The notes beneath the pieces were generated by a model. The model was not told the DNA's origin, did not search any database, and saw only the letters and a program-made list of their open reading frames with translations. A DNA stretch of 32,000 bases from Vibrio cholerae ATCC 14035 (lineage in GTDB: Bacteria > Pseudomonadota > Gammaproteobacteria > Enterobacterales > Vibrionaceae): contig NZ_JHXR01000001.1 in NCBI RefSeq assembly GCF_000621645.1, forward strand, positions 210,001 to 242,000, read 5' to 3'. Numbering within the stretch: the stretch's first letter is position 1; every line of letters starts with the position of its first letter. This document shows positions 18,951 through 31,192 of this stretch, piece by piece. A program made the translations under genes and the position numbers.

Positions 18951-20057
18951 ATGTGTAAGCTTATGTCGATCAAAAAAAGGTATGTTGCACTGCTTGTTGC
19001 CATTGGGGTGGCAATTGGCTGGGTCACTTTAGGTGGCAGTGCTGCAGTGATGCATTACACCTCAAGCACCGAGTTTTGTCTCTCCTGCCATTCTATGGAG
19101 ATCCCTTTTAAGGAGTATCAAGGCTCTGTTCACTTTTCCAATGCGAAAGGCATTCGCGCCGAATGTGCCGATTGCCATATTCCGAGCGATCCCATCGGTT
19201 ATTTCGTCACTAAGGTACGAGCGACCAAAGACATCTACCACGAATTTGTAACAGGTAAGATTGATACGCCTGAGAAGTATGAGGCGCACCGACAAGAGTT
19301 AGCGGAGATGGTATGGCAGCAGATGCGCGGTAACGATTCGGCAACGTGTCGCTCTTGCCATGATTTTGATGCCATGGAGCCGTTTGAGCAGTCACACGAA
19401 GCGGTGAAAATGCATGAGTATGCCAAAGCCAATAACCAAACCTGTATTGATTGCCACAAAGGTGTCGCGCACTTCGCACCTGAAGCGGAGCTTGATAGCA
19501 AAGCCTTTGAAACCTTGATGGCCTTTACCGAAAAAACGGCCGCTGACGCGCAGCGAGTTTACCCCGTCACCACGATTGCGATGGGTGAATTGGGTACGAT
19601 CAACCCGACGACTGCTCTGGATGTTGTGAGTACCAAGGGCACTGAACGTACCGTGCAAATCAACGCTTACCAAATGAAAGGCGCAGAACAAGTACTGTAT
19701 ATGGGTGAGGGGCAACGTGCGGTTGTCGCGACTTTAACTGAACAAGGCCAAAAAGCGCTGCAAGCACAAGACTACAAAACCGATGCTTACGGTAACCAAT
19801 GGCGCGCGGTGAATTTAACCGCCACCATCACATCGCCTGTGGTGGATAGTTTAGAGCCGGTTTGGTCTTATGCCGAACAGCTTGATAACGTTTACTGTGC
19901 GACCTGCCATGCGAAAATTCCAGCCAGTCACTTTACCGTGAATGCTTGGGGGCCAGTGGCGAAAAGTATGGGAGAGCGGACGGATATTTCCGCTGAGAAT
20001 CTGGAGATTCTCACCAAGTTCTTCCAGCACCATGCCAAAGATATGGTTAGCCACTGA
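18951..20057 (+). CDS. torY: Pentahaem c-type cytochrome of the NapC/NirT/TorC family (TorY-like)
   Basis: There are five CXXCH motifs (CLSCH, CADCH, CRSCH, CIDCH, CATCH) and an N-terminal membrane anchor. At ~365 aa its size matches E. coli TorY. The alternative start at 18963 (MSIKKR...) is equally plausible. Confidence 0.85.
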   Translation: MCKLMSIKKRYVALLVAIGVAIGWVTLGGSAAVMHYTSSTEFCLSCHSMEIPFKEYQGSVHFSNAKGIRAECADCHIPSDPIGYFVTKVRATKDIYHEFVTGKIDTPEKYEAHRQELAEMVWQQMRGNDSATCRSCHDFDAMEPFEQSHEAVKMHEYAKANNQTCIDCHKGVAHFAPEAELDSKAFETLMAFTEKTAADAQRVYPVTTIAMGELGTINPTTALDVVSTKGTERTVQINAYQMKGAEQVLYMGEGQRAVVATLTEQGQKALQAQDYKTDAYGNQWRAVNLTATITSPVVDSLEPVWSYAEQLDNVYCATCHAKIPASHFTVNAWGPVAKSMGERTDISAENLEILTKFFQHHAKDMVSH

Positions 20058-20079
20058 GTATAAGTAGAGGGATAACGTT

Positions 20080-22527
20080 ATGACTAAAATCACCCGCCGT
20101 GGATTTTTAAAAGGCACTGGTATGGCTGCCGGTGCAATGGCTTTCACTTCATTTTCACCACTCTCGATTGCCAGTGATAACGCACGTGGTAAAGGCGTGT
20201 TAACGGCTGGACGTATGGGGCCACTTCTCTGTGAAGTGCAAGATGGCAAAATGGTGGCGACCAAAAATGCGCTGGCGCAAACTGTACCGAACAGCTTGCA
20301 ATCGACAGGCCCCGATCAGGTGTATACCCAAGCGCGGGTTAAATACCCTATGGTTCGTAAAGGCTTTTTAGCGAACCCTGCCGCACCGAAAGGAGTGCGT
20401 GGCAGTGATGAGTTTGTGCGCGTATCGTGGGATGACGCGTATCGCTTAATCCATGAGCAGCATATGCGCATTCGCAAAACCTATGGTCCAGCTTCGGTGT
20501 TTGCTGGCTCTTATGGTTGGCGCTCCAGTGGCGTGCTGCATAAAGCTCAAACTTTATTGCAACGCTATATGAGTATGGCGGGCGGCTATTCAGGCCACTT
20601 GGGAGATTACTCAACCGGCGCGGCGCAAATCATCATGCCGCACGTGGTTGGTTCGATTGAAGTGTATGAGCAGCAAACCACTTACCCCGTAGTGCTAGAG
20701 CACAGTGATGTGGTGGTTCTGTGGGGGTTAAACCCGATCAACACATTGAAAATTGCGTGGAGCTCGACCGACTGTGCAGGCCTTGAATTCTTCCATCAAC
20801 TGAAAAAATCCGGCAAAACCATTATCGGCATTGACCCGATCCGCTCTGAAACCATCGAGTTTTTCGGTGAGCAAGCCCAATGGATTGCCCCACACCCAAT
20901 GACAGATGTGGCGATGATGATGGGCATCGCGCACTCGCTGATCAAGCAAGGTAAGCACGATAAAGCCTTCTTGGACAAATACACCGTAGGCTACGATCGC
21001 TTTGAAGCGTATTTGCTGGGTAAAGAAGATGGCGTTGAAAAGTCCGCGCAATGGGCAGAAGGCATTTGTGGCGTACCAGCCAAGCAACTAGAAACGCTGG
21101 CTGAGATTTTCAGCAACCATCGCACTATGCTAATGGCAGGCTGGGGTATGCAGCGTCAACAATATGGTGAGCAGCGTCACTGGATGGTGGTCACCTTAGC
21201 CGCGATGTTGGGGCAAATTGGCTTGCCGGGCGGTGGTTTTGGTTTCTCCTACCATTACTCGAATGGCGGGAACCCAGCGCGTGACGCGGGAGTTCTGCCT
21301 GCCATTTCGGCAGCTATTGGTGGTGGCTCTTCGGCGGGGAATGATTGGGCGATTTCAGGGGCGACGCAAAGTTTCCCGGTCGCGCGTATTGTGGAAGCGT
21401 TGGAGAATCCGGGCGGGGCCTATCAACACAATGGTCACACGCTGACCTTCCCTGAAATCAAGATGATCTGGTGGGCGGGTGGTGCCAACTTTACCCACCA
21501 TCAAGACACCAATCGTCTGATCAAAGCGTGGCAAAAGCCTGAGCTGATTGTAATTTCAGAGCCGTATTGGACAGCGGCGGCGAAGCATGCCGATATCGTA
21601 CTGCCGATCACCACAACGTTTGAGCGTAATGACTTGACCATGACGGGTGACTACAGTAACCAACACTTGGTGCCGATGAAACAGGTGGTGGAGCCACAAG
21701 GCGAAGCGCGTAACGACTTTGATGTGTTTGCCGATATGGCGGAAATGATCCGTCCCGGAGGCCGTGATGTGTTTACCGAAGGCAAAACCGAGATGGAATG
21801 GTTGTACGGTTTCTACAAAACCGCGCAGAAGAGCGGCCGTGCAGCACGAGTGGCGATGCCGAATTTCAGTAAGTTCTGGGAAGATAACCAGCTGATTGAA
21901 ATGAAGTGGAACGCGAAAAATGCTCAGTTTGTGCGTTACGCCGATTTTCGCGCGGATCCGATCCTCAATCCATTAGGTACACCGAGCGGCAAGATTGAGA
22001 TTTACTCTAAAACTCTGGCGGGCTTTAATTTGCCTGATTGTCCAGCCCATCCAACCTGGTTGGCTCCTGATGAATTTACAGGTAATGCGAAGCAGGGCGA
22101 GTTGCAATTAATGACGGCGCACGCGGCGCACCGTTTGCACAGTCAATTCAACTACGCTCAATTGCGGGAAGAGTATGCGATTGCTAACCGTGAGCCGATC
22201 TGGATCCACCCAGAAGATGCGGCATCACGCGGCATTCAAACGGGCGATTTGGTTCGTGCCTATAACCAGCGTGGCCAAGTACTGGTCGGCGCTTTGGTGA
22301 CGGATCGCATCAAACAAGGCTCAGTCTGTATTCACGAAGGCGGCTGGCCAGATCTTGATCCGCAAACCGGCTTATGTAAAAACGGTGGTGCGAATGTGCT
22401 GACTTCAGACATTCCGACTTCACGTTTGGCGAATGGCTGTGCGGCGAACTCTTCTCTGGTGCGTATTGAAAAGTACACAGGGCCAGCGTTGGAACTGACG
22501 GCGTTTATGCCACCGAAAAATGGCTAA
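20080..22527 (+). CDS. torZ: Periplasmic molybdopterin (bis-MGD) S-/N-oxide reductase, TorZ/BisZ-like
   Basis: A Tat signal is present ([17 protein letters not shown]). Long blocks match my recollection of E. coli TorZ ([48 protein letters not shown]). It begins 22 nt after torY. Confidence 0.9.
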
Positions 22528-22616: not shown

Positions 22617-24443
22617 CTAAGCCGAGGTGAGTTCAGCTTGTTCAACAATACGATTGTGCGGCTGCCAAGGTGAGTTGATTGAGTCTGGTTGTAGATGAAT
22701 AGACCAGTATTCGTTATGCATCGAACTCGTATGGCTCGCTTGCAAGGTGGTTAAATTATTCACCAACAGCAAATCGCCAGTTTGTAGCCTGTACTCAAAG
22801 CAAACTCTTGGGTCATGACATAACGTGTTGAGGCGTTGATAGACCCGCGACTGCTCGGTTAATTCGCTGACCCCTTCTAAATGAGTGAGGTAGCCCTGCG
22901 CATGCTGAAAATCTTGCCAACGCAGCACATCTTGGCGTGATGTCGAACAGTAACGGACGAGGGGGTGTAAAGTATTCCCGCCATGTTCAGGTGAAAAGTT
23001 GCTGTAGTGCATGATGGTGTTACGCAGCTGTTCGCGCTCTTGACCGTTGATGGTCAGGACGGCGAGTGCAGCGTCAACCACGGTCCAAGTATTCGAGTCT
23101 GGTGATGCAACGCTGTAAACGGCGTACTCATGGGGGGTGTAATCTTCATATTGATAGCGATGTGGGTGTACGGCCATATAAGCGGGTGGGCAGGAGAGCT
23201 CCCAATGTAAAGGTTGCTCACCAGCACTGCCTTTGAAGGCTTGTACGCTAACCTCATAAGCCCAAGTGACAGCAGAACGGTGATTGAGGTACCAAGTTTG
23301 TAGCTGTTCAGCGTCAGCCAGTGGTGCAAAACCGCGCAGCAAAACCGAGCCAAATTCTTTGACCAGTTGGCTGAGCTCTTTGGGAAGTAGCATATCCAGT
23401 GAAGCGCGATTGGCTGGGCACTCTAAATACAACCCCGATTTTTCATGTTGTAATTCTGCCCGTATTTGGCGCAGCGCATGGGCGTGCACTTCATCGGCTG
23501 CGCTCAATTGCAGGTAACACCAAGGCTTACCATCATGAGTGACAGGCAAGATCACCCCAGAACGTTTTAAGTGATTTTCTTTACTATCAATAATGAATTC
23601 GCCGCGGCTGGCATCAAACAGCAAAGTACTGTGCCAAGGCGTTTTGAATTGGCGTTCATGGAACAGAAACAGCGAGTATTTCTTACCTATCATCGGATGT
23701 TCATGAATGCTTAATCGAATGCAATCGGCAAATTTTTGCTGCAAGAAGTTATCCAGCGCTTTGCCTTGCACCATCATCCCCTTAGCGATATCCGCAAGGC
23801 GACGTCGGCGATCTTTGTATGAGAGAGGAGCAAGAACGAATTTCTGATCCTGATTCATGAATTTTTTCAAACCCAGATAGGTTTGATTCATCTTATTATT
23901 TTTTAATTTAAGTTCAGTGAAATTCTCTGCATAGTCAGGATCACCAAACTTCTCACGTAATCCATCAAAATATTCCGTGTCTTTCAGATCGGAAAATTCA
24001 TCAAAATGTTCGAAATTGACAATTTTTAACGCATCGCTGCAATTCATGTTTGCTACCATTTTACGCAGATTGTCTGAGTAATCATAATGGTGGTCTAAGT
24101 CGACAGAGATATAATCAGAGAATGTATGATAGTCAGAAAAGATATAAAACGTCACACCCGGTTCATAAACGGATTCAATGTCACGGATGCATTGAACAAA
24201 CTTTCTTAAAACGACATATTCACCGAGATCGGGTGTATGGCTAAGTACTTTATCTAAGTTATTTGTTTTACAGGGGAAAGCGGGGAGGAGTAATTTAATT
24301 TTCTCTTGGCTATTTACAAATCTACGAATTTGACTTTTTAAGTGAGCAAGCCCGTTGTAACTGGCATTGCATTGTGCAATTAGTTGATTTAGAAGAATAA
24401 ATGAGATCTTCTCCACATAGGTTTCTTGTTGAGCATCGAGCAT
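22617..24443 (-). CDS. Fusion protein: PvcA/IsnA-type isonitrile synthase (N-terminal ~335 aa) plus divergent TauD/PvcB-like domain (C-terminal ~250 aa)
   Basis: The SD GAGGAAA lies 5-6 nt upstream of the ATG at 24443. The N-terminal domain carries PvcA/DIT1-family hallmarks ([25 protein letters not shown], TPWHS). The C-terminal domain aligns by eye, block for block, with the stand-alone PvcB-like protein at 27261-28109. Confidence 0.85.
   Translation of the reverse strand: [608 protein letters not shown]
22689..23381 (-). other. Divergent TauD/PvcB-like domain of the fusion protein (aa ~355-585)
   Basis: [20 protein letters not shown] parallels LVLLRGFETFEHSEQFADY. PLHWELS parallels [28 protein letters not shown] parallels [20 protein letters not shown]. 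Confidence 0.65.
23439..24443 (-). other. IsnA/PvcA isonitrile synthase domain of the fusion protein (aa 1 to ~335)
   Basis: See the motifs listed above. The domain boundary is estimated from where similarity to ~330-aa PvcA ends and the linker ([29 protein letters not shown]) begins. Confidence 0.7.
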
Positions 24444-24753: not shown

Positions 24754-24763
24754 GACTAGATAA
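24754..24763 (+). promoter_or_regulatory. GACTAGATAA box 39-48 nt upstream of the cluster LysR start; it contains a -10-like GATAAT when the next T is included
   Basis: The same 10-mer occurs twice upstream of the pvcB-like gene. The proximal copy there has the same orientation and nearly the same distance to the ATG. Confidence 0.45.
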
Positions 24764-24801
24764 TGAAAATAGAACCCAAAGTTACTAATAAAGGAACAGT
24801 C

Positions 24802-25692
24802 ATGCTAAATGAGTTAAAACGCATAGTGATATTCAATAAAGTGGTTGAGTGTGGTTCTTTTACTTGTGCAGCAGAAGCATTAGGTATGACCAAATCTAAG
24901 GTCAGTGAACAGATCACCGCTTTAGAAAAAACACTGAATGTGCGCTTGCTAAACCGAACTACCCGTAAAATCAGTTTAACCACAGAGGGGGACACATTTT
25001 ATCAACGCAGCCACGGATTATTGAATATTGCGGAGGAGGCGCTTTGCTCCGTTAACCACTTAGCGTCAGAAGTTTCCGGAACGATCCGCATTGGTACCAC
25101 TATTGATGTCGGCACTTTTTTGCTCAACCCGCTACTGGCTGAGTTTTATAAGCAGTACCCTAAGGTGAATTTCGATATTCAGCTCGATGATGGACTGCAA
25201 GATTTGGTGGATTCTAATCTGGATATGGTGATCCGAATTGGTGAGCTGACGTCATCCTCTTTAGTTGGCCGTGTTATAGCGCCTTTTGAGTTAGGTATTT
25301 ATGCCAGTCAAACCTATTTAGAGAACGCGCCGCCGATCAATACGATTCAGGATTTAGAGCAGCACGATTGGGTCTATCTCACACGCTTAAATCTGCCTAA
25401 CCAAACCCTAACTTTAACCAATCAAGAGGGCGTACAACATCAGGTCAAATTCCATAGCAAACACAGCAGTAATTCTCCGCTTGGCGTCATGACCATGGTG
25501 CAAAATGGTTTGGGTGTGGGATCGATTGCCAGTTTTTTGATTGATAAGTTGCCTGATGCATCGCTAGTGCGATTGTTTCCGGACTTCTATCAGATCAGTA
25601 CTACCATGAATATTCTCTACCCCAGTCGGAAAAATTTGCCGCCAAGGGTGCGTTTATTTATCGATTATCTGGTGGGAACATTGTGTGGTTAA
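24802..25692 (+). CDS. LysR-family transcriptional regulator (cluster-situated)
   Basis: MLNELKRIVIFNKVVECGSFTCAAEALGMTKSKVSEQITALEKTLNVRLLNRTTRK is the LysR HTH. I use the ATG at 24802, which has AAGGA 6 nt upstream; the ORF-track start at 24763 lacks an SD. Confidence 0.85.
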   Translation: MLNELKRIVIFNKVVECGSFTCAAEALGMTKSKVSEQITALEKTLNVRLLNRTTRKISLTTEGDTFYQRSHGLLNIAEEALCSVNHLASEVSGTIRIGTTIDVGTFLLNPLLAEFYKQYPKVNFDIQLDDGLQDLVDSNLDMVIRIGELTSSSLVGRVIAPFELGIYASQTYLENAPPINTIQDLEQHDWVYLTRLNLPNQTLTLTNQEGVQHQVKFHSKHSSNSPLGVMTMVQNGLGVGSIASFLIDKLPDASLVRLFPDFYQISTTMNILYPSRKNLPPRVRLFIDYLVGTLCG

Positions 25693-25812: not shown

Positions 25813-27276
25813 CTAGTGAGGTAAGTTGAATTCTGCCAACACACCTTCTGCCAACACACTGTGAACCTGATGCAGTGGAGTGACCCATTCGATGTAAGCA
25901 TCAGGGCGAACCAATACCGCTTGTCCCGGATAAGGTGCGTGACGTGTCCAGTGTTGAGCATTTTCGGATTGGGTACCGATGCGGATCACATGTACATGCG
26001 GCGGCACGTCAACCACGCATTCGTCATCACTAAACAAGAACAGTGTCCATCTTGCGTAGTCAAGCAGTGAGTACACACGAGTGATCTCAGTACCTTGATT
26101 GAGCACGAAATCCCACATTCGAGTGCCAGCTAAGCCTTCTTCGGAGTAGCGAATGCCCATTCCCGTGATATTACCTGAACGCTTTTCAACGATTTTTACG
26201 TAGTCTTGCGCATGGGTGTTGGTGGCTGAAAACTTCGTTGAGCGTACCAGTTCGCCGGAGCTGTCTATCACGCTCTGCGCCACTGGTTGACGTTCAGCGT
26301 GATAACTTTTCAATAAAGCAGGAGAGGCTTGACCTTTAATCACCATACTCAGTTTCCAGATCAGGTTAAATGCGTCAGCAACCCCAGTATTTAATCCTTG
26401 TCCACCGTTGACTGAGTGTACGTGGCAGGCATCCCCTGCAAGGAAAACCCGGTCATCGACGCTGTAATGTTCTGCTACTGATTCTTTCACGGCAAATTGC
26501 GAGAACCAGACCACTTCTTTAAAACCCAATTGATGAGGTGCCATTGCCCGGTTAATTTTGGCGATAGCCTGCTCTAAGGTGAAATCGTGCGTATCCATAC
26601 GGACATAAAAGCGATCGATTTCACCTTCGCGAGGGATCCATGCCACATCTGAGGTTTCTGCTTGGAACACAATAATTTCAGGGACTTTAGGAAAGTCACT
26701 GTCAATCACACCATCAATCACCGCCCAGATAATTTCGGGGCGCACAATGTGAAAAGGCACATTAAAATGGCGACGCACAAAAGATTGAGACCCATCCGCA
26801 CCAATCACAAAGCGCGATTGAATACGCTCACCATTGCTGAGATGAGTTAGGCAGCCTGCTTGATTGAGCTCGATATTGTCGACGCTTGTGTTGCGCCAAA
26901 CGGGGGCATTCGCTTCAAGTAATTTCTTGTCCAATAGCTGCTCAACAAACGATTGACCTAACATCAAAAAGTGTTTGTGCAAGCAGCCTTCCAAGGCTTC
27001 CCACCAGCTCGATTGGCGCGAGATAAAATGGCCATTAGCCCAAACCGAGCTGGTATTACACGGCTTGCCTAAAGGGTAAAGATCATCAAAAAGCTTCGCG
27101 ACTTCGAGCAGTTGTAAGGTACGGGCATTTAACGCATCGGCGCGTCCGACTTGAAGTGGTTCGGCTGACTTATCAATGATCAGCGCGTTTAAACCGCAGC
27201 GCTGTGCTAAGTAGGCACTCATTAACCCAACTGGGCCTGCGCCGATAATGACGATGTCGGTTATTTTTGTGGACAT
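25813..27276 (-). CDS. Class A FAD-dependent aromatic monooxygenase (PheA/TfdB-type hydroxylase)
   Basis: The GXGXXG dinucleotide fold (IVIIGAGPVGLMSAYLA) and the FAD-binding block GDACHVHSVNGGQGLNTGVADAFNLIWKL are present. At 487 aa it has a C-terminal extension. Its ATG at 27276 overlaps the upstream gene by 16 nt. Confidence 0.85.
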   Translation of the reverse strand: MSTKITDIVIIGAGPVGLMSAYLAQRCGLNALIIDKSAEPLQVGRADALNARTLQLLEVAKLFDDLYPLGKPCNTSSVWANGHFISRQSSWWEALEGCLHKHFLMLGQSFVEQLLDKKLLEANAPVWRNTSVDNIELNQAGCLTHLSNGERIQSRFVIGADGSQSFVRRHFNVPFHIVRPEIIWAVIDGVIDSDFPKVPEIIVFQAETSDVAWIPREGEIDRFYVRMDTHDFTLEQAIAKINRAMAPHQLGFKEVVWFSQFAVKESVAEHYSVDDRVFLAGDACHVHSVNGGQGLNTGVADAFNLIWKLSMVIKGQASPALLKSYHAERQPVAQSVIDSSGELVRSTKFSATNTHAQDYVKIVEKRSGNITGMGIRYSEEGLAGTRMWDFVLNQGTEITRVYSLLDYARWTLFLFSDDECVVDVPPHVHVIRIGTQSENAQHWTRHAPYPGQAVLVRPDAYIEWVTPLHQVHSVLAEGVLAEFNLPH

Positions 27277-28109
27277 TGGTACGACTCCAAGCTTGGATTG
27301 TTATAAGGAGGATTACTTAACACTTGCACACGACGAATGTGACGCGGCGTGTGAGAGTTAAAGGCTTCACGGCCATGGAGTAAGGAGAAGTTATCGGTGA
27401 TCACTATGTCACCCGTTTGCCACTCATGAGCGTAGAAGTTACGTGGGTCGTACAGTGCACGGCGTAAACTTTTGTGAAACTCGATCGCTTGCTCAGGAGT
27501 AATGCCAGACAGTGATACATCAGGTGGATTGAGCAGGTCGCCATTTTCTTCAAAATGCGGCTCGTTGTAGCGTATTACTTGATAGTCTCGGTATGGATGC
27601 TGCATCACAATCGGGGAGACGGTTTTACTGTGGTAAAACTCCATTTTACGCTGGTAGTGTCCGGTGACTTGCTGCCAAAGCTCAAGATCTGGCTGAGGGG
27701 CGTGCTGTAAAGCCAGCATGGTATGACTGAAGGTCGTACGCCCGCCATGCCCCGGTAAAGGAGCCTTTACACACTGAAAGATTTGGTATTCAGGGACTTG
27801 TGGGCGATACATGCCATCCCAATGCATCGGCATGTAGCTGCTGTCAAAAATGTGATCGCCAGGATCCTCTTTTTGTACCAGATCTAATACGCGCCCAAAC
27901 GGCCAAACACTCACTTCTCCCCAACGTTCGCAGTAGTCCGCAAACTGCTCCGAATGTTCAAAGGTTTCAAAACCACGCAGTAACACAAGTTGTTCACGCA
28001 AAAAGAGTTCGCGTAACTCATCAATATCTAACTCATTGACATGAATCGGAGCATGTTTCGGTTCTACGATCACTCCAAACGGTTGCAGAGCGGTAATTTT
28101 GTACGGCAT
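27261..28109 (-). CDS. PvcB/IsnB-like Fe(II)/2-oxoglutarate-dependent dioxygenase (TauD/TfdA family)
   Basis: The facial triad is intact: H-W-D in PMHWDG (His codon at 27822-27824) and the distal His in NFSLLHGREAF. An Arg lies 11 residues later (TPRHIRR). I use the ATG at 28109, which has GGAGG 8 nt upstream, rather than the TTG at 28124. Confidence 0.85.
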   Translation of the reverse strand: MPYKITALQPFGVIVEPKHAPIHVNELDIDELRELFLREQLVLLRGFETFEHSEQFADYCERWGEVSVWPFGRVLDLVQKEDPGDHIFDSSYMPMHWDGMYRPQVPEYQIFQCVKAPLPGHGGRTTFSHTMLALQHAPQPDLELWQQVTGHYQRKMEFYHSKTVSPIVMQHPYRDYQVIRYNEPHFEENGDLLNPPDVSLSGITPEQAIEFHKSLRRALYDPRNFYAHEWQTGDIVITDNFSLLHGREAFNSHTPRHIRRVQVLSNPPYNNPSLESYQCPQK

Positions 28110-28144
28110 ATCAATGGCCTCCAAAATGGGCTTAGGTTTTTCCT

Positions 28145-29468: not shown

Positions 29469-29545
29469 GCGCCCTTAGCTCAGTTGGATAGAGCACGTGC
29501 CTTCTAAGCATGTGGTCACAGGTTCGAATCCTGTAGGGCGTGCCA
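29469..29545 (+). tRNA. argU: tRNA-Arg (anticodon UCU, reads AGA)
   Basis: I folded the cloverleaf by hand. The acceptor is GCGCCCT/AGGGCGT, with a G1.U72 wobble where E. coli argU has G-C. The D arm is GCTC-AGTTGGATA-GAGC. The anticodon stem CGTGC/GCATG carries the loop CTTCTAA. The T arm is ACAGG-TTCGAAT-CCTGT. CCA is encoded. Confidence 0.93.
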
Positions 29546-29896: not shown

Positions 29897-31192
29897 ATGA
29901 AACGCATCCCCGCATTGGACAGTATCCGAGGATTATTGTTGGTGCTGATCACCTTCAACCATCTTATCTGGTACAGCGGCGGTACAACCATACTGCAAAT
30001 GATTACTCATGAACCTGTCGGCGTGTTTGGTGCCGCGGAAGGTTTCATCTTTATGTCTGGACTACTGGCTGGTATGGTCTATAGCCGCCGTGAATACACT
30101 GACCGTCAAGCGGCTGGGAAAGTGTGGCATCGTGCGTTCATTATCTACAAATACCACATTGCAGGACTCTTTATTGCTATGCTGTGGTTTTGGCTGGGCA
30201 GCCACTATTTTGCTGAACAAGTCACCGTGTTTGGTGGCAGCTTTAGTAATCTGCCTACTATGCCTTTTATGACCATGTTGATGAGCTTCCTGCTGCTCAA
30301 TAAACCCGCCTATCTGGAAATTTTGCCACTCTATATCATGTATATGTTGCTGTTTCCTTTGGCACTGTACGGGTTTCGTCGCGGTTATCTTAAATGGGTA
30401 CTTGCGCTGAGCGTGCTGATTTGGGCAAGCAGTGGTTGGATTCAAGGCGCTATGCTTTTGCCACTCTTTAAGTGGCTTTCTGCAGAATACATTCCTGAAC
30501 TCGGTTACTTTGACCCTTTTGCTTGGCAACTGCTGTTTTTCTTTGGTGGTGCATTAGGTTATTGCAAGCGTCAAGGCGAGTTGGCGTGGTTCCACCCTAA
30601 ATTGGTTTGGTTATGTGCGGCGATAGCTTTGGTTATCTTTATGGCTTACCGCGATCTTTTAACGCCATTGGGTATTACTAAGCAGATGGTGTATGCGGCA
30701 TCCAGTAAGCCAGAGCTTGGCTGGTTGCGTGTACTGAGTTTGAGTGTATGGATCTACTTAATCTCTGTTGTGATCCGCTTTTTCCCAACGGCATTAGTGT
30801 ATGAACCGCTGAGCTATCTCGGCCGCCATTCATTACAAGTTTTTACTTGGCAAACCGTACTGATTTTTATCACTGCACCTTGGCTTCTGACCACGCGCGA
30901 CTCGGTTTGGCATACAGCGATTATTCTGCTGCTCTGTACAACATTGTGGATTCCCGCTTGGCTACAGACACAGCGTAAAGAAAAGCCAATCAATTTGTCA
31001 TCTGCGGTGGTGGCTTGCCTTTCACTGGTTTTAGTGATGACGACGAATTTTACAAGCTTCCCTCAACCACCCAAAAGTGACATTGTGGCGAGCAGTGATG
31101 AGGTCGTCACCGATGCTTTACCCAGCAGTGAGATTTCTAATCATGAGCTGCTGAGTGAACCGATGAACAGTGATGAGACACCCGTGAACTGA
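29897..31192 (+). CDS. OpgC-family / acyltransferase-like polytopic membrane protein
   Basis: The 431-aa protein has ~10 predicted TM segments and a short acidic C-terminal tail. Its N-terminus (IPALDSIRGLLLVLITFNHLIW) resembles the OpgC-type DxxRG...H opening. The SD GGGAG lies upstream. The functional call is tentative. Confidence 0.6.
   Translation: MKRIPALDSIRGLLLVLITFNHLIWYSGGTTILQMITHEPVGVFGAAEGFIFMSGLLAGMVYSRREYTDRQAAGKVWHRAFIIYKYHIAGLFIAMLWFWLGSHYFAEQVTVFGGSFSNLPTMPFMTMLMSFLLLNKPAYLEILPLYIMYMLLFPLALYGFRRGYLKWVLALSVLIWASSGWIQGAMLLPLFKWLSAEYIPELGYFDPFAWQLLFFFGGALGYCKRQGELAWFHPKLVWLCAAIALVIFMAYRDLLTPLGITKQMVYAASSKPELGWLRVLSLSVWIYLISVVIRFFPTALVYEPLSYLGRHSLQVFTWQTVLIFITAPWLLTTRDSVWHTAIILLLCTTLWIPAWLQTQRKEKPINLSSAVVACLSLVLVMTTNFTSFPQPPKSDIVASSDEVVTDALPSSEISNHELLSEPMNSDETPVN

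What the first reader, a model, noticed from the sequence alone, without database searches (positions are those of the whole stretch)
22617..23381. The TauD-like domain fused to the isonitrile synthase has an altered metal/2OG-binding set (HxE, shifted distal His, no Arg)
I aligned the C-terminal domain of the fusion by eye to the neighbouring stand-alone PvcB-like protein, and the blocks are collinear. LLRGF is conserved. PMHWDGM corresponds to PLHWELS. PEYQIFQCVKAP corresponds to [33 protein letters not shown] corresponds to [22 protein letters not shown]. Three catalytic positions differ. The HxD Asp is Glu (H413-W-E415; His codon at 23205-23207). The distal His is displaced by two residues (LLHGR versus LQASH). 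The Arg that binds the 2-oxoglutarate C5 carboxylate, 11 residues after the distal His in TauD-family enzymes, is absent (TPRHIRR versus NEYWSIH). The cluster therefore has one canonical PvcB paralogue and one fused divergent paralogue. The fused one may be a pseudo-enzyme or scaffold, a substrate-channelling partner, or an oxygenase with different co-substrate chemistry. I do not know of this pairing in the Pvc or Isn systems.
Basis: partly seen in the sequence, partly recalled or inferred. Interest (0 to 1): 0.7.

Follow-up and report, generated by a model that had tools for sequence, protein, structure and literature searches.

The report
Dead oxygenase domain on isonitrile synthase
The Vibrio cholerae isonitrile synthase VC1949 carries a C-terminal copy of its partner oxygenase that has kept the fold but lost most iron, 2-oxoglutarate and substrate-binding residues, so the neighbouring stand-alone oxygenase gene most likely does the chemistry.

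Summary
ORF 22617-24443(-) is V. cholerae VC1949/Q9KQP9, an isonitrile synthase fused to a TauD/PvcB-fold domain. Against PIsnB (7TCL: H101, D103, H250, R261, R265), MAFFT and profile-profile alignment give H413, E415, Q568, N577 and S581. So HxE is real and both Arg are gone. The distal His is replaced by Gln, not shifted: H571 is absent even in V. mimicus.

Across 44 fused homologues, 24 keep the full H-D-H-R-R set. None of the 16 in the V. cholerae-type clade does, and each subclade carries different residues. Gene context separates the two classes in every locus read. Ten of 10 degenerate fusions sit beside a stand-alone PvcB/IsnB gene plus an FAD aromatic hydroxylase; 6 of 6 canonical fusions have neither.

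The degenerate domain evolves faster but is still under purifying selection (dN/dS 0.06).

Best reading: a pseudo-dioxygenase domain kept for a non-catalytic role, with the stand-alone IsnB-type enzyme acting in trans. The protein and the ICS-dioxygenase architecture are already known ("V. cholerae IsnAB"). The degeneration and its link to the operon appear undescribed in the literature I could search. Interest is moderate.

The parts
22617..24443 (-). Fusion gene, 608 aa: V. cholerae VC1949 / UniProt Q9KQP9 'PvcA protein', called 'IsnAB' in the literature
   Evidence: ORF. Exact-sequence look-up names it V. cholerae PvcA Q9KQP9, seen on 1000 or more contigs. Gene lengths and order match N16961 (PMC2807590; VC1949-1951).
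23574..24329 (-). Isonitrile (isocyanide) synthase domain, residues 39-290 (fold extends to about residue 325)
   Evidence: PF05141, 211 bits. The AF2 model matches PvcA 3e59 and PIsnA 9dh4 with TM 0.83. dN/dS is 0.03 in the V. penaeicida strain pair.
22644..23381 (-). TauD/PvcB-fold pseudo-dioxygenase domain, residues 355-600
   Evidence: PF02668 partial match, 40 bits. phmmer to PvcB 3eat gives E 3.4e-5. hhalign to stand-alone PvcBs gives 98.3%. Foldseek to PIsnB 7tcl gives TM 0.83, rmsd 2.6 A over 267 columns.
23199..23207 (-). H413-W-E415, the remnant of the HxD metal motif (PIsnB H101/D103)
   Evidence: This column pair reads HWA in V. mimicus, GWQ in V. metschnikovii, HWN in V. penaeicida and DWN in Marinomonas.
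22740..22742 (-). Q568, occupying the distal-His column (PIsnB H250)
   Evidence: Operon-type homologues have Q, L, M, V or R here (P0012 alone keeps His); all 24 canonical fusions and 6 stand-alone PvcBs have His.
22731..22733 (-).
   Evidence: V. mimicus has Q and V. metschnikovii has Y at this position.
22701..22715 (-). N577-E-Y-W-S581, in place of the R-E-L-W-R signature. N577 is in the 2OG-carboxylate Arg column (R261). S581 is in the substrate-carboxylate Arg column (R265).
   Evidence: Residue roles in PIsnB are from PMC9467999.
22653..22691 (-). C-terminal motif [13 protein letters not shown] (585-597). Most of its positions are invariant among the degenerate fusions, a shorter QPxSxNSP(W/F) core recurs in several canonical fusions, and stand-alone PvcB lacks it.
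   Evidence: Alignment invariants Q259 to N271 of A2; alignments.
27261..28124 (-). Stand-alone PvcB/IsnB Fe/2OG oxygenase (VC1944) with intact H101, D103, H250, R261 and R265. It is PIsnB-type: R at the K107 position and N at the N188 position.
   Evidence: phmmer to PvcB 3eat gives E 7e-84 and to PIsnB 7tcl gives E 1e-77. Catalytic columns. The selectivity rule is from PMC9467999.
25813..27276 (-). Class A FAD aromatic-ring hydroxylase. Its start overlaps the pvcB stop by 16 nt.
   Evidence: PF01494 plus Rng_hyd_C. NCBIfam PRK07190, 972 bits. PDB relatives include VibO, phenol 2-monooxygenase and 3-hydroxybenzoate hydroxylase. Overlap.
24763..25692 (+). LysR-family regulator, divergent from the fusion gene (319-bp intergenic region)
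   Evidence: A LysR gene accompanies the module in most related loci.

Best explanation
The C-terminal domain of VC1949 descends from an active IsnB/PvcB-like Fe(II)/2-oxoglutarate oxygenase domain that was fused to the isonitrile synthase. It has become a pseudo-enzyme.

Shown:
- It keeps the TauD/PvcB double-stranded beta-helix fold.
- It has lost the distal His (Q568), the 2OG-binding Arg (N577) and the substrate-carboxylate Arg (S581).
- Its Asp is now Glu (E415).
- These columns drift freely among orthologues.

Inferred:
- The domain cannot assemble a 2-His-1-carboxylate Fe(II)/2OG site.
- The pathway therefore runs as follows. The N-terminal ICS domain converts L-tyrosine to tyrosine isonitrile. 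The stand-alone IsnB-type oxygenase encoded two genes away (27261-28124) carries out the oxidative decarboxylation/desaturation in trans, giving a vinyl isonitrile. The co-transcribed FAD monooxygenase hydroxylates the phenol ring.
- The dead domain is retained under purifying selection for a non-catalytic role. The most likely role is stabilising or oligomerising the synthase domain. A docking or hand-off role for the intermediate is possible.
- The degeneration followed recruitment of the stand-alone oxygenase and hydroxylase pair, and it happened repeatedly in different lineages.
For: 1. Fold. The AF2 model has pLDDT 85.7 and pTM 0.89. Foldseek matches PIsnB 7tcl at TM 0.83 and PvcB 3eat at 0.73.

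2. Residue mapping. MAFFT and hhalign (98.3%) agree on H413, E415, Q568, N577 and S581. The roles of H101, D103, H250 and R265 in PIsnB come from PMC9467999.

3. Family census. Twenty-four fused proteins and 6 stand-alone PvcBs have H-D-H-R-R. None of the 16 proteins in the V. cholerae-type clade does, and the residues differ between subclades.

4. Gene context.
- Ten of 10 degenerate fusions sit next to a TauD-family gene and an FAD_binding_3 gene (window).
- Six of 6 canonical fusions have neither.

5. Evolutionary rate.
- The C-domain/N-domain identity ratio is 1.16 among canonical fusions and 0.62 among degenerate ones.
- Between V. cholerae and V. mimicus, dN is 0.28 for the C-domain, 0.07 for the N-domain and 0.09 for PvcB.

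6. Retention.
- dN/dS is 0.063 for the C-domain between two V. penaeicida strains.
- 47 of 282 positions are invariant among 10 degenerate domains.
- Of the V. cholerae cluster members listed, all 12 alleles read in full are 608 aa; the only shorter entries (179 and 234 aa) are labelled 'partial'.

7. Where the losses fall. Of 34 columns conserved at 90% or more in canonical domains, the 11 lost include D103, the G of the GG(R)TTF region, E of RYNEP, H250-G-R and R261. Most of these are shared with stand-alone PvcB. The 11 kept look structural.

8. Recurrent loss. P0012 keeps H-D-H, while its sister P0014 (99% bootstrap) has H-G-R. Both already have the operon.

9. NCBIfam dioxygenase models hit the distal His/Arg region of canonical P0011 and P0020 but do not hit the window protein.
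Against: - No biochemistry was done here, and I could not read the model's coordinates to measure the site geometry.
- From memory, unverified (Grzyska et al. 2007, J Inorg Biochem): TauD variants D101E and H255Q keep substantial activity. So HxE plus Gln is not by itself proof of a dead metal site.
- H413, E415 and Q568 are invariant among the 13 V. cholerae alleles read, although divergence within the species is tiny.
- The literature labels the protein a two-domain ICS-dioxygenase, 'IsnAB'.
- From memory, Crawford et al. 2012 (PNAS 109:10821) obtained the rhabduscin aglycone by heterologous expression of V. cholerae genes. I could not access the paper to see whether VC1949 alone was sufficient.
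- The structural role is inferred only. In some lineages the domain is eroding (P0015 580 aa, P0017 582 aa, P0018 534 aa), which fits a dispensable relic as well.
- The phylogeny does not resolve whether the canonical V. quintilis pair lies inside or beside the degenerate clade (44% against 18% bootstrap).
- The context correlation is phylogenetically non-independent.
Confidence: 0.6

Rival explanations
1. The fused domain is still an active oxygenase that uses a variant site (H413, E415, Q568 or another residue) and perhaps a different co-substrate. VC1949 would then be a true bifunctional IsnAB, and the stand-alone PvcB would perform a second, different oxidation.
For: - The fold is intact.
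- H413, E415 and Q568 are invariant among the V. cholerae alleles read.
- From memory, D-to-E and H-to-Q ligand variants of TauD retain activity.
- The literature name 'IsnAB' implies bifunctionality.
- From memory, heterologous expression of V. cholerae genes gave the aglycone.
Against: - Both Arg residues, the 2OG anchor and the substrate-carboxylate anchor, are gone (N577, S581).
- Sister species with the same operon have HWA...Q...D (V. mimicus) and GWQ...Q...N (V. metschnikovii), so no site is conserved.
- Further family-wide residues are lost: G451, E511 and G-R after the distal His.
- The domain evolves 3-4 times faster than the N-domain and PvcB.
- A bona fide IsnB-type enzyme sits beside it in every degenerate-fusion locus read (10 of 10).
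Confidence: 0.12
2. The domain is a functionless relic in slow decay. It is carried along only because its removal has not yet happened or because deletions tend to damage the upstream synthase.
For: - Catalytic residues drift freely.
- The substitution rate is elevated.
- Internal deletions and truncations occur in V. proteolyticus-type proteins (P0015, P0017) and in Microbulbifer epialgicus (P0018).
Against: - dN/dS is 0.063, far below 1, in the only unsaturated comparison.
- 47 positions are invariant among 10 degenerate domains. These include motifs not needed for catalysis: YxYxDxTP, GxERExxR and [13 protein letters not shown].
- The ORF is full length in all 12 V. cholerae alleles read and across several genera at 33-61% C-domain identity.
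Confidence: 0.2
3. The dead domain is a ligand-binding or hand-off module. It captures tyrosine isonitrile released by the synthase domain and delivers it to the stand-alone oxygenase and hydroxylase, or it recruits them into a complex. That would shield cellular iron enzymes from the isonitrile.
For: - W394 (PIsnB W74) and part of the pocket scaffold are retained.
- Some operon-type lineages (V. penaeicida, V. nigripulchritudo, P0010) keep both Arg columns while lacking the metal ligands.
- Isonitrile coordination inactivates the PIsnB iron centre (PMC9467999), which gives a rationale for sequestration.
Against: - In V. cholerae itself the carboxylate-anchoring Arg is Ser and the lid insertion is shortened.
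- No binding residue is conserved across the whole degenerate clade.
- No interaction data exist.
Confidence: 0.08

Closest known systems
PIsnB (Photorhabdus, PDB 7TCL) and PvcB (P. aeruginosa, PDB 3EAT/4YLM): Fe(II)/2OG desaturases acting on tyrosine isonitrile
   Same: They share the fold (Foldseek TM 0.83 and 0.73) and collinear sequence blocks (hhalign 98.3%). The LLRGF, W74, HW, GD and NN motifs are retained.
   Different: The domain lacks H250 (Gln), R261 (Asn) and R265 (Ser), and D103 is Glu. It has a 14-residue insertion after the HW motif and a C-terminal [13 protein letters not shown] tail. It is only 18-19% identical and is fused to the synthase. The true orthologue of these enzymes in this window is the stand-alone gene at 27261-28124 (E 7e-84).
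[quoted passage not shown]
   Same: The architecture is the same: PF05141 followed by PF02668 in one polypeptide. VC1949 is itself cited as the bacterial example, 'V. cholerae IsnAB' (PMC5974471; ICS-TauD is 36% of fungal ICS proteins, PMC10153163). Part of the C-terminal tail motif is shared with several canonical bacterial fusions.
   Different: Canonical members keep HWD, LHGR and RELWR (24 of 24) and stand alone in their loci (6 of 6). The V. cholerae-type members have lost these residues and always sit beside a separate PvcB/IsnB gene and an FAD hydroxylase gene.
pvcABCD (paerucumarin) and isnAB (rhabduscin) pathways
   Same: The logic is the same: an isonitrile synthase acting on tyrosine, then an Fe/2OG oxidation, then ring hydroxylation or tailoring, often with a LysR regulator nearby. 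The stand-alone oxygenase here carries the PIsnB-type markers (R at K107, N at N188), which predicts a vinyl isonitrile.
   Different: Ring hydroxylation would be done by a single-component class A flavoprotein hydroxylase. From my own knowledge, the Pseudomonas PvcC/PvcD system is instead a two-component HpaB/HpaC-type hydroxylase. The synthase also carries an extra dead oxygenase domain. There is no glycosyltransferase.
Pseudoenzyme domains in general (catalytically dead paralogues kept as scaffolds or regulators)
   Same: The domain is homologous to an active enzyme, its catalytic residues have been replaced, purifying selection persists, and an active paralogue is present in the same system.
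   Different: I found no previously described pseudo-TauD domain in isonitrile pathways. The search covered only the held open-access library.

Membership tests
Fe(II)/2OG dioxygenase, TauD/TfdA family (PF02668), PvcB/IsnB subgroup | Double-stranded beta-helix TauD fold | tested here: met
   The AF2 model has pLDDT 85.7. Foldseek matches 7tcl at TM 0.83 and 3eat at 0.73, and also matches many TauD, AtsK and RdpA structures.
Fe(II)/2OG dioxygenase, TauD/TfdA family (PF02668), PvcB/IsnB subgroup | Sequence match above the Pfam gathering score | tested here: met
   40 bits against a cut-off of 27, but only residues 483-567 (profile positions 170-249 of 267), stopping just before the distal His. 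hhalign to PvcBs gives 98.3%.
Fe(II)/2OG dioxygenase, TauD/TfdA family (PF02668), PvcB/IsnB subgroup | [quoted passage not shown] H) | tested here: not met
   H413 and E415 are present, but the distal-His column holds Q568. H571 is not conserved.
Fe(II)/2OG dioxygenase, TauD/TfdA family (PF02668), PvcB/IsnB subgroup | Arg binding the 2OG C5 carboxylate, about 11 residues after the distal His | tested here: not met
   N577 occupies the column of PIsnB/PvcB R261.
Fe(II)/2OG dioxygenase, TauD/TfdA family (PF02668), PvcB/IsnB subgroup | Arg anchoring the substrate carboxylate (PIsnB R265) | tested here: not met
   S581. The role of R265 is from PMC9467999.
Fe(II)/2OG dioxygenase, TauD/TfdA family (PF02668), PvcB/IsnB subgroup | 2OG-dependent turnover with Fe(II) | not testable with these tools
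   This needs a biochemical assay.
Two-domain ICS-dioxygenase fusion (ICS-DOX / ICS-TauD / 'IsnAB') | PF05141 and PF02668 domains in one polypeptide, in that order | tested here: met
   The model shows both folds in one chain. The protein is named as the bacterial example in PMC5974471.
Two-domain ICS-dioxygenase fusion (ICS-DOX / ICS-TauD / 'IsnAB') | Catalytically competent dioxygenase half: the HWD, LHGR and RELWR signature seen in 24 of 24 canonical fusions | tested here: not met
   The window protein has HWE, LQAS and NEYWS.
Isonitrile synthase PvcA/IsnA (PF05141) | Domain match and fold | tested here: met
   PF05141, 211 bits. Foldseek matches 3e59 and 9dh4 at TM 0.83. The NCBIfam PvcA equivalog model scores only 99 bits against a 600-bit cut-off, so this is a family member, not a PvcA equivalog.
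Pseudoenzyme (operational definition) | Homologous to an active enzyme, catalytic residues lost, sequence still under purifying selection | tested here: met
   Homology. Residue loss. dN/dS 0.063 in the V. penaeicida pair and 47 invariant positions. Lack of activity itself was not tested.

The most novel reading that the evidence does not exclude
An ancestrally bifunctional synthase-oxygenase handed its oxidation step to a recruited stand-alone paralogue. Its own oxygenase half was then repeatedly and independently converted, in several marine gammaproteobacterial lineages, into a non-catalytic module. That module now serves as a docking or hand-off platform, organising the synthase, the IsnB-type oxygenase and the flavin hydroxylase into a complex that handles the iron-poisoning isonitrile intermediate. 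V. cholerae 'IsnAB' would then not be the bifunctional enzyme the literature assumes.
Probability: 0.2. Interest if true: 0.65.

Novelty: new variant of a known kind. Interest (0 to 1): 0.45.

Why it matters
VC1949 is cited as the bacterial prototype of two-domain isocyanide synthase-dioxygenases. If its dioxygenase half is dead, pathway predictions for the V. cholerae isocyanide cluster need correcting, and so does genome-mining logic that counts an 'ICS-TauD' fusion as two catalytic steps. In this clade the oxidative step would belong to VC1944.

The family also offers a clean natural experiment. Closely related fusions exist with and without a trans-acting paralogue. That allows a study of how a fused tailoring domain loses catalysis, which residues go first, and why the dead domain is kept.

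The practical payoff is modest: correct construct design for heterologous production, and a set of residues for resurrection or truncation experiments.

Tried and rejected
- The word-indexed protein search with the C-domain alone returned nothing. The full-length query was needed. The exhaustive phmmer search later showed the domain family is small, with only 38 representatives at E of 0.001 or better among 1.84 billion, nearly all of them in 560-740 aa fused proteins.
- Pairwise HMMER aligned H426-P-H428 with the HWD motif. I rejected this because profile methods and the canonical fusions place HWD at 413-415, and HPH is not conserved.
- The 'shifted His' H571 was rejected as a ligand because it is not conserved.
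- A halogenase-like HxA reading for V. mimicus (HWA) was considered and dropped, because the distal His and Arg are missing there too.
- Interspecies dN/dS was unusable because dS is saturated. Only the V. penaeicida strain pair gave a ratio.
- The Biopython bootstrap timed out and was replaced by a custom NJ bootstrap. That bootstrap left the position of the V. quintilis pair unresolved.
- The model's coordinates are not exposed to the scripts, so ligand geometry could not be measured.
- The primary paper on V. cholerae isnAB expression (Crawford et al. 2012) and Clarke-Pearson & Brady 2008 are not in the held library. Ten literature searches found no description of the degenerate site.
Full report
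**What is at the coordinates**

The window is a Vibrio cholerae chromosome segment. The ORF at 22617-24443(-) encodes 608 aa. Its sequence is identical to V. cholerae 'PvcA protein' Q9KQP9 and was seen on at least 1000 contigs.

Gene order and lengths match N16961 VC1944-VC1952 (PMC2807590; VC1949-1951 in PMC5816637):
- chitinase
- torY/yecK
- biotin-sulfoxide/TMAO-type reductase
- the fusion gene
- a LysR regulator
- an FAD monooxygenase
- PvcB
- folD

Pfam gives DIT1_PvcA for residues 39-290 (211 bits). It gives a weak, partial TauD match for residues 483-567, at 40 bits against a cut-off of 27. The finding's range corresponds to residues 355-608, and the quoted H413 codon (23205-23207) is correct.

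**Is the C-terminal part a TauD/PvcB-like domain?**

Yes.
- By sequence alone it matches PvcB (3EAT) at E 3.4e-5 over its whole length.
- A profile of ten degenerate domains aligns to a profile of ten stand-alone PvcBs with 98.3% probability, E 2e-14, over 247 columns.
- An AlphaFold2 model of the full protein, built from 24 homologues, has mean pLDDT 85.7 and pTM 0.89.
- Foldseek matches the N-terminal half to PvcA 3E59 and PIsnA 9DH4 (TM 0.83). It matches the C-terminal half to PIsnB 7TCL (TM 0.83, rmsd 2.6 A, 18% identity) and to PvcB 3EAT/4YLM (TM 0.73).

**Where the catalytic residues fall**

In PIsnB the metal is bound by H101, D103 and H250. The substrate carboxylate is held by R265, which stacks on W74, and by G104 (PMC9467999). 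R261, eleven residues after H250, is the family's 2OG C5-carboxylate Arg; that assignment rests on established TauD-family knowledge.

Two independent alignments give the same mapping: MAFFT with canonical fused domains as bridges, and hhalign without them.

| PIsnB residue | Window residue |
|---|---|
| W74 | W394 |
| H101 | H413 |
| D103 | E415 |
| H250 | Q568 |
| R261 | N577 |
| R265 | S581 |

The 'shifted distal His' is not. H571 lies three residues after the true column and is replaced by Q in V. mimicus and Y in V. metschnikovii. A pairwise HMMER alignment had put H426-P-H428 under HWD. That motif is absent from all homologues, so I rejected it.

**Comparison across the family**

A genome scan and a protein search recovered fused homologues of 580-646 aa from Vibrio, Marinomonas, Microbulbifer, Algicola, Pseudomonas and metagenomes. 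An exhaustive phmmer search of 1.84 billion representatives with the C-domain alone found only 38 hits at E of 0.001 or better. Almost all were C-terminal parts of 560-740 aa proteins. The domain is therefore a small lineage that essentially occurs only fused to the synthase.

In a joint alignment of 44 fused proteins and 6 stand-alone PvcBs:
- 24 fused proteins and all the PvcBs carry H-D-H-R-R.
- None of the 16 proteins in the V. cholerae-type clade does.
- The replacements differ between subclades.

| Protein | Five catalytic columns |
|---|---|
| V. cholerae | H-E-Q-N-S |
| V. mimicus | H-A-Q-D-R |
| V. metschnikovii | G-Q-Q-N-R |
| V. penaeicida | H-N-L-R-R |
| V. nigripulchritudo | H-N-M-R-R |
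| Marinomonas | D-N-Q-N-H |
| Microbulbifer | S-N-Q-S-C |

No alternative site is conserved, which argues against a variant oxygenase.

Thirty-four columns are conserved at 90% or more in canonical domains. Of these, 11 are lost in the operon-type group, 11 are kept and 12 are partly kept. The lost ones include D103, a Gly of the GG(R)TTF region, the Glu of RYNEP, H250-G-R and R261, most of which are also invariant in stand-alone PvcB. The kept ones look structural: L360, W394, W414, P494, R508, G556-D557, N563 and W580. NCBIfam dioxygenase models hit the distal His/Arg region of the canonical fusions P0011 and P0020 but not the window protein.

**Gene context**

Every degenerate fusion whose locus I could read lies next to a stand-alone TauD-family gene of about 278-287 aa and an FAD_binding_3 monooxygenase of about 480-500 aa. 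That covers ten loci: the window, V. mimicus, V. metschnikovii, V. penaeicida, V. nigripulchritudo, Marinomonas transparens, Microbulbifer sp. GL-2, V. proteolyticus and two metagenomic contigs.

Every canonical fusion examined has neither. That covers six loci: an Alteromonadaceae MAG, V. quintilis, Algicola sagamiensis and three metagenomic contigs, one of which carries a tandem pair of fusions. The correlation is perfect, but it is phylogenetically non-independent.

The stand-alone gene in the window is a close orthologue of characterised enzymes (E 7e-84 to PvcB, 1e-77 to PIsnB). It carries the PIsnB-type markers, Arg at the K107 position and Asn at the N188 position. By the published rule these predict vinyl-isonitrile formation (PMC9467999). 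The monooxygenase is a class A aromatic hydroxylase, related to VibO, phenol 2-monooxygenase and 3-hydroxybenzoate hydroxylase. Its start overlaps the pvcB stop by 16 nt.

**Is the dead domain decaying or kept?**

It evolves faster than its neighbours.
- Among canonical fusions the C-domain is as conserved as the N-domain (identity ratio 1.16). Among degenerate fusions the ratio is 0.62.
- Between V. cholerae and V. mimicus, dN is 0.28 for the C-domain, 0.07 for the synthase domain and 0.09 for PvcB.

It is nevertheless constrained.
- In the only pair with unsaturated dS (two V. penaeicida strains), dN/dS is 0.063 for the C-domain and 0.032 for the N-domain.
- 47 of 282 positions are invariant across ten degenerate domains. 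These include motifs unrelated to catalysis: YxYxDxTP, GxERExxR and the C-terminal [13 protein letters not shown].
- All 12 V. cholerae alleles read in full are 608 aa.

On the other hand, V. proteolyticus-type proteins and one Microbulbifer protein have internal deletions in the domain. So in some lineages it is eroding.

**Order of events**

An NJ bootstrap on the synthase domain separates the distant canonical fusions from the clade of operon-type proteins plus the V. quintilis pair with 100% support. It does not resolve where the canonical, solo V. quintilis pair sits.

P0012 still has H-D-H, with His at both Arg columns. Its sister P0014 (99% bootstrap) has H-G-R. Both already have the operon. 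Triad loss therefore happened after the operon formed, and more than once.

**Interpretation**

Shown:
- the fold is retained
- the distal His and both Arg are lost in V. cholerae
- these columns are not conserved among orthologues
- a bona fide IsnB-type oxygenase and a hydroxylase sit beside every degenerate fusion whose locus was read
- selection is relaxed but still purifying

Inferred:
- The domain cannot bind Fe(II) and 2OG and is a pseudo-enzyme.
- The oxidation of tyrosine isonitrile is done in trans by the stand-alone enzyme.
- The dead domain is kept for a structural, docking or hand-off role.

I put about 0.8 on 'not an Fe/2OG oxygenase' and about 0.6 on the full statement.

**Main caveats**

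- TauD D101E and H255Q variants are reported to retain activity. This is from memory and I did not verify it here.
- The literature calls the protein 'IsnAB', a two-domain ICS-dioxygenase (PMC5974471).
- As I recall, Crawford et al. 2012 obtained the rhabduscin aglycone from V. cholerae genes. I could not access the paper to see whether VC1949 alone sufficed.

**Novelty**

The protein, the cluster and the ICS-TauD architecture are known. The degenerate active site, its restriction to one clade, and its strict association with a stand-alone PvcB/IsnB gene plus an FAD hydroxylase were not described in anything I could search. I rate this a new variant of a known kind, of moderate interest.

Noticed in passing
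window 18951-22527, compared with L016 9075-11615: The torY/yecK-like cytochrome c gene and the biotin-sulfoxide/TMAO-type reductase gene lie between the chitinase and the fusion gene in the window. In V. mimicus the chitinase directly follows the fusion gene, so this pair is an insertion or deletion between sister species.
   Followed up: no
window 27261-28124 (-): pvcB can start at TTG 28124 (287 aa) or at an ATG five codons downstream (282 aa). Public annotations of V. cholerae carry both lengths.
   Followed up: no
window 27261-27276: The pvcB stop region overlaps the start of the FAD monooxygenase gene by 16 nt, suggesting translational coupling. In V. penaeicida, V. nigripulchritudo and Marinomonas the overlap is 4 nt.
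   Followed up: partly
window 29469-29545 (+): A tRNA-Arg (anticodon TCT) lies between folD and a 431-aa multi-pass membrane ORF at 29897-31192.
   Followed up: no
L013 4519-6456 and 7001-8938: Two canonical ICS-TauD fusion genes (645 aa each) lie in tandem downstream of a LysR gene in a metagenomic contig.
   Followed up: no
L014 4940-11274: A canonical fusion sits beside a phage-type integrase, a Mob relaxase, an H-NS gene and two haem 'Dehydratase_hem' (aldoxime-dehydratase-like) genes. This may be a mobile isonitrile/nitrile-related island.
   Followed up: no
proteins P0087, P0077, P0063: Other fused lineages show independent partial degeneration. P0087 has the HWD region deleted and R261 changed to Q. 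P0077 has H250 changed to D. P0063 has R261 changed to S and R265 changed to K.
   Followed up: partly
proteins P0015, P0017 (V. proteolyticus, L012) and P0018 (Microbulbifer epialgicus): These proteins have shortened C-terminal domains (580, 582 and 534 aa) with the HWD region or larger segments deleted. They no longer hit Pfam TauD.
   Followed up: partly
L001, L016 and the window, compared with L002-L005, L009, L012: In V. cholerae, V. mimicus and V. metschnikovii the LysR gene lies between the monooxygenase and the fusion gene, splitting the module into two transcription units. In the other loci that carry a LysR gene it lies upstream of pvcB, and the three genes form one co-directional block.
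   Followed up: no
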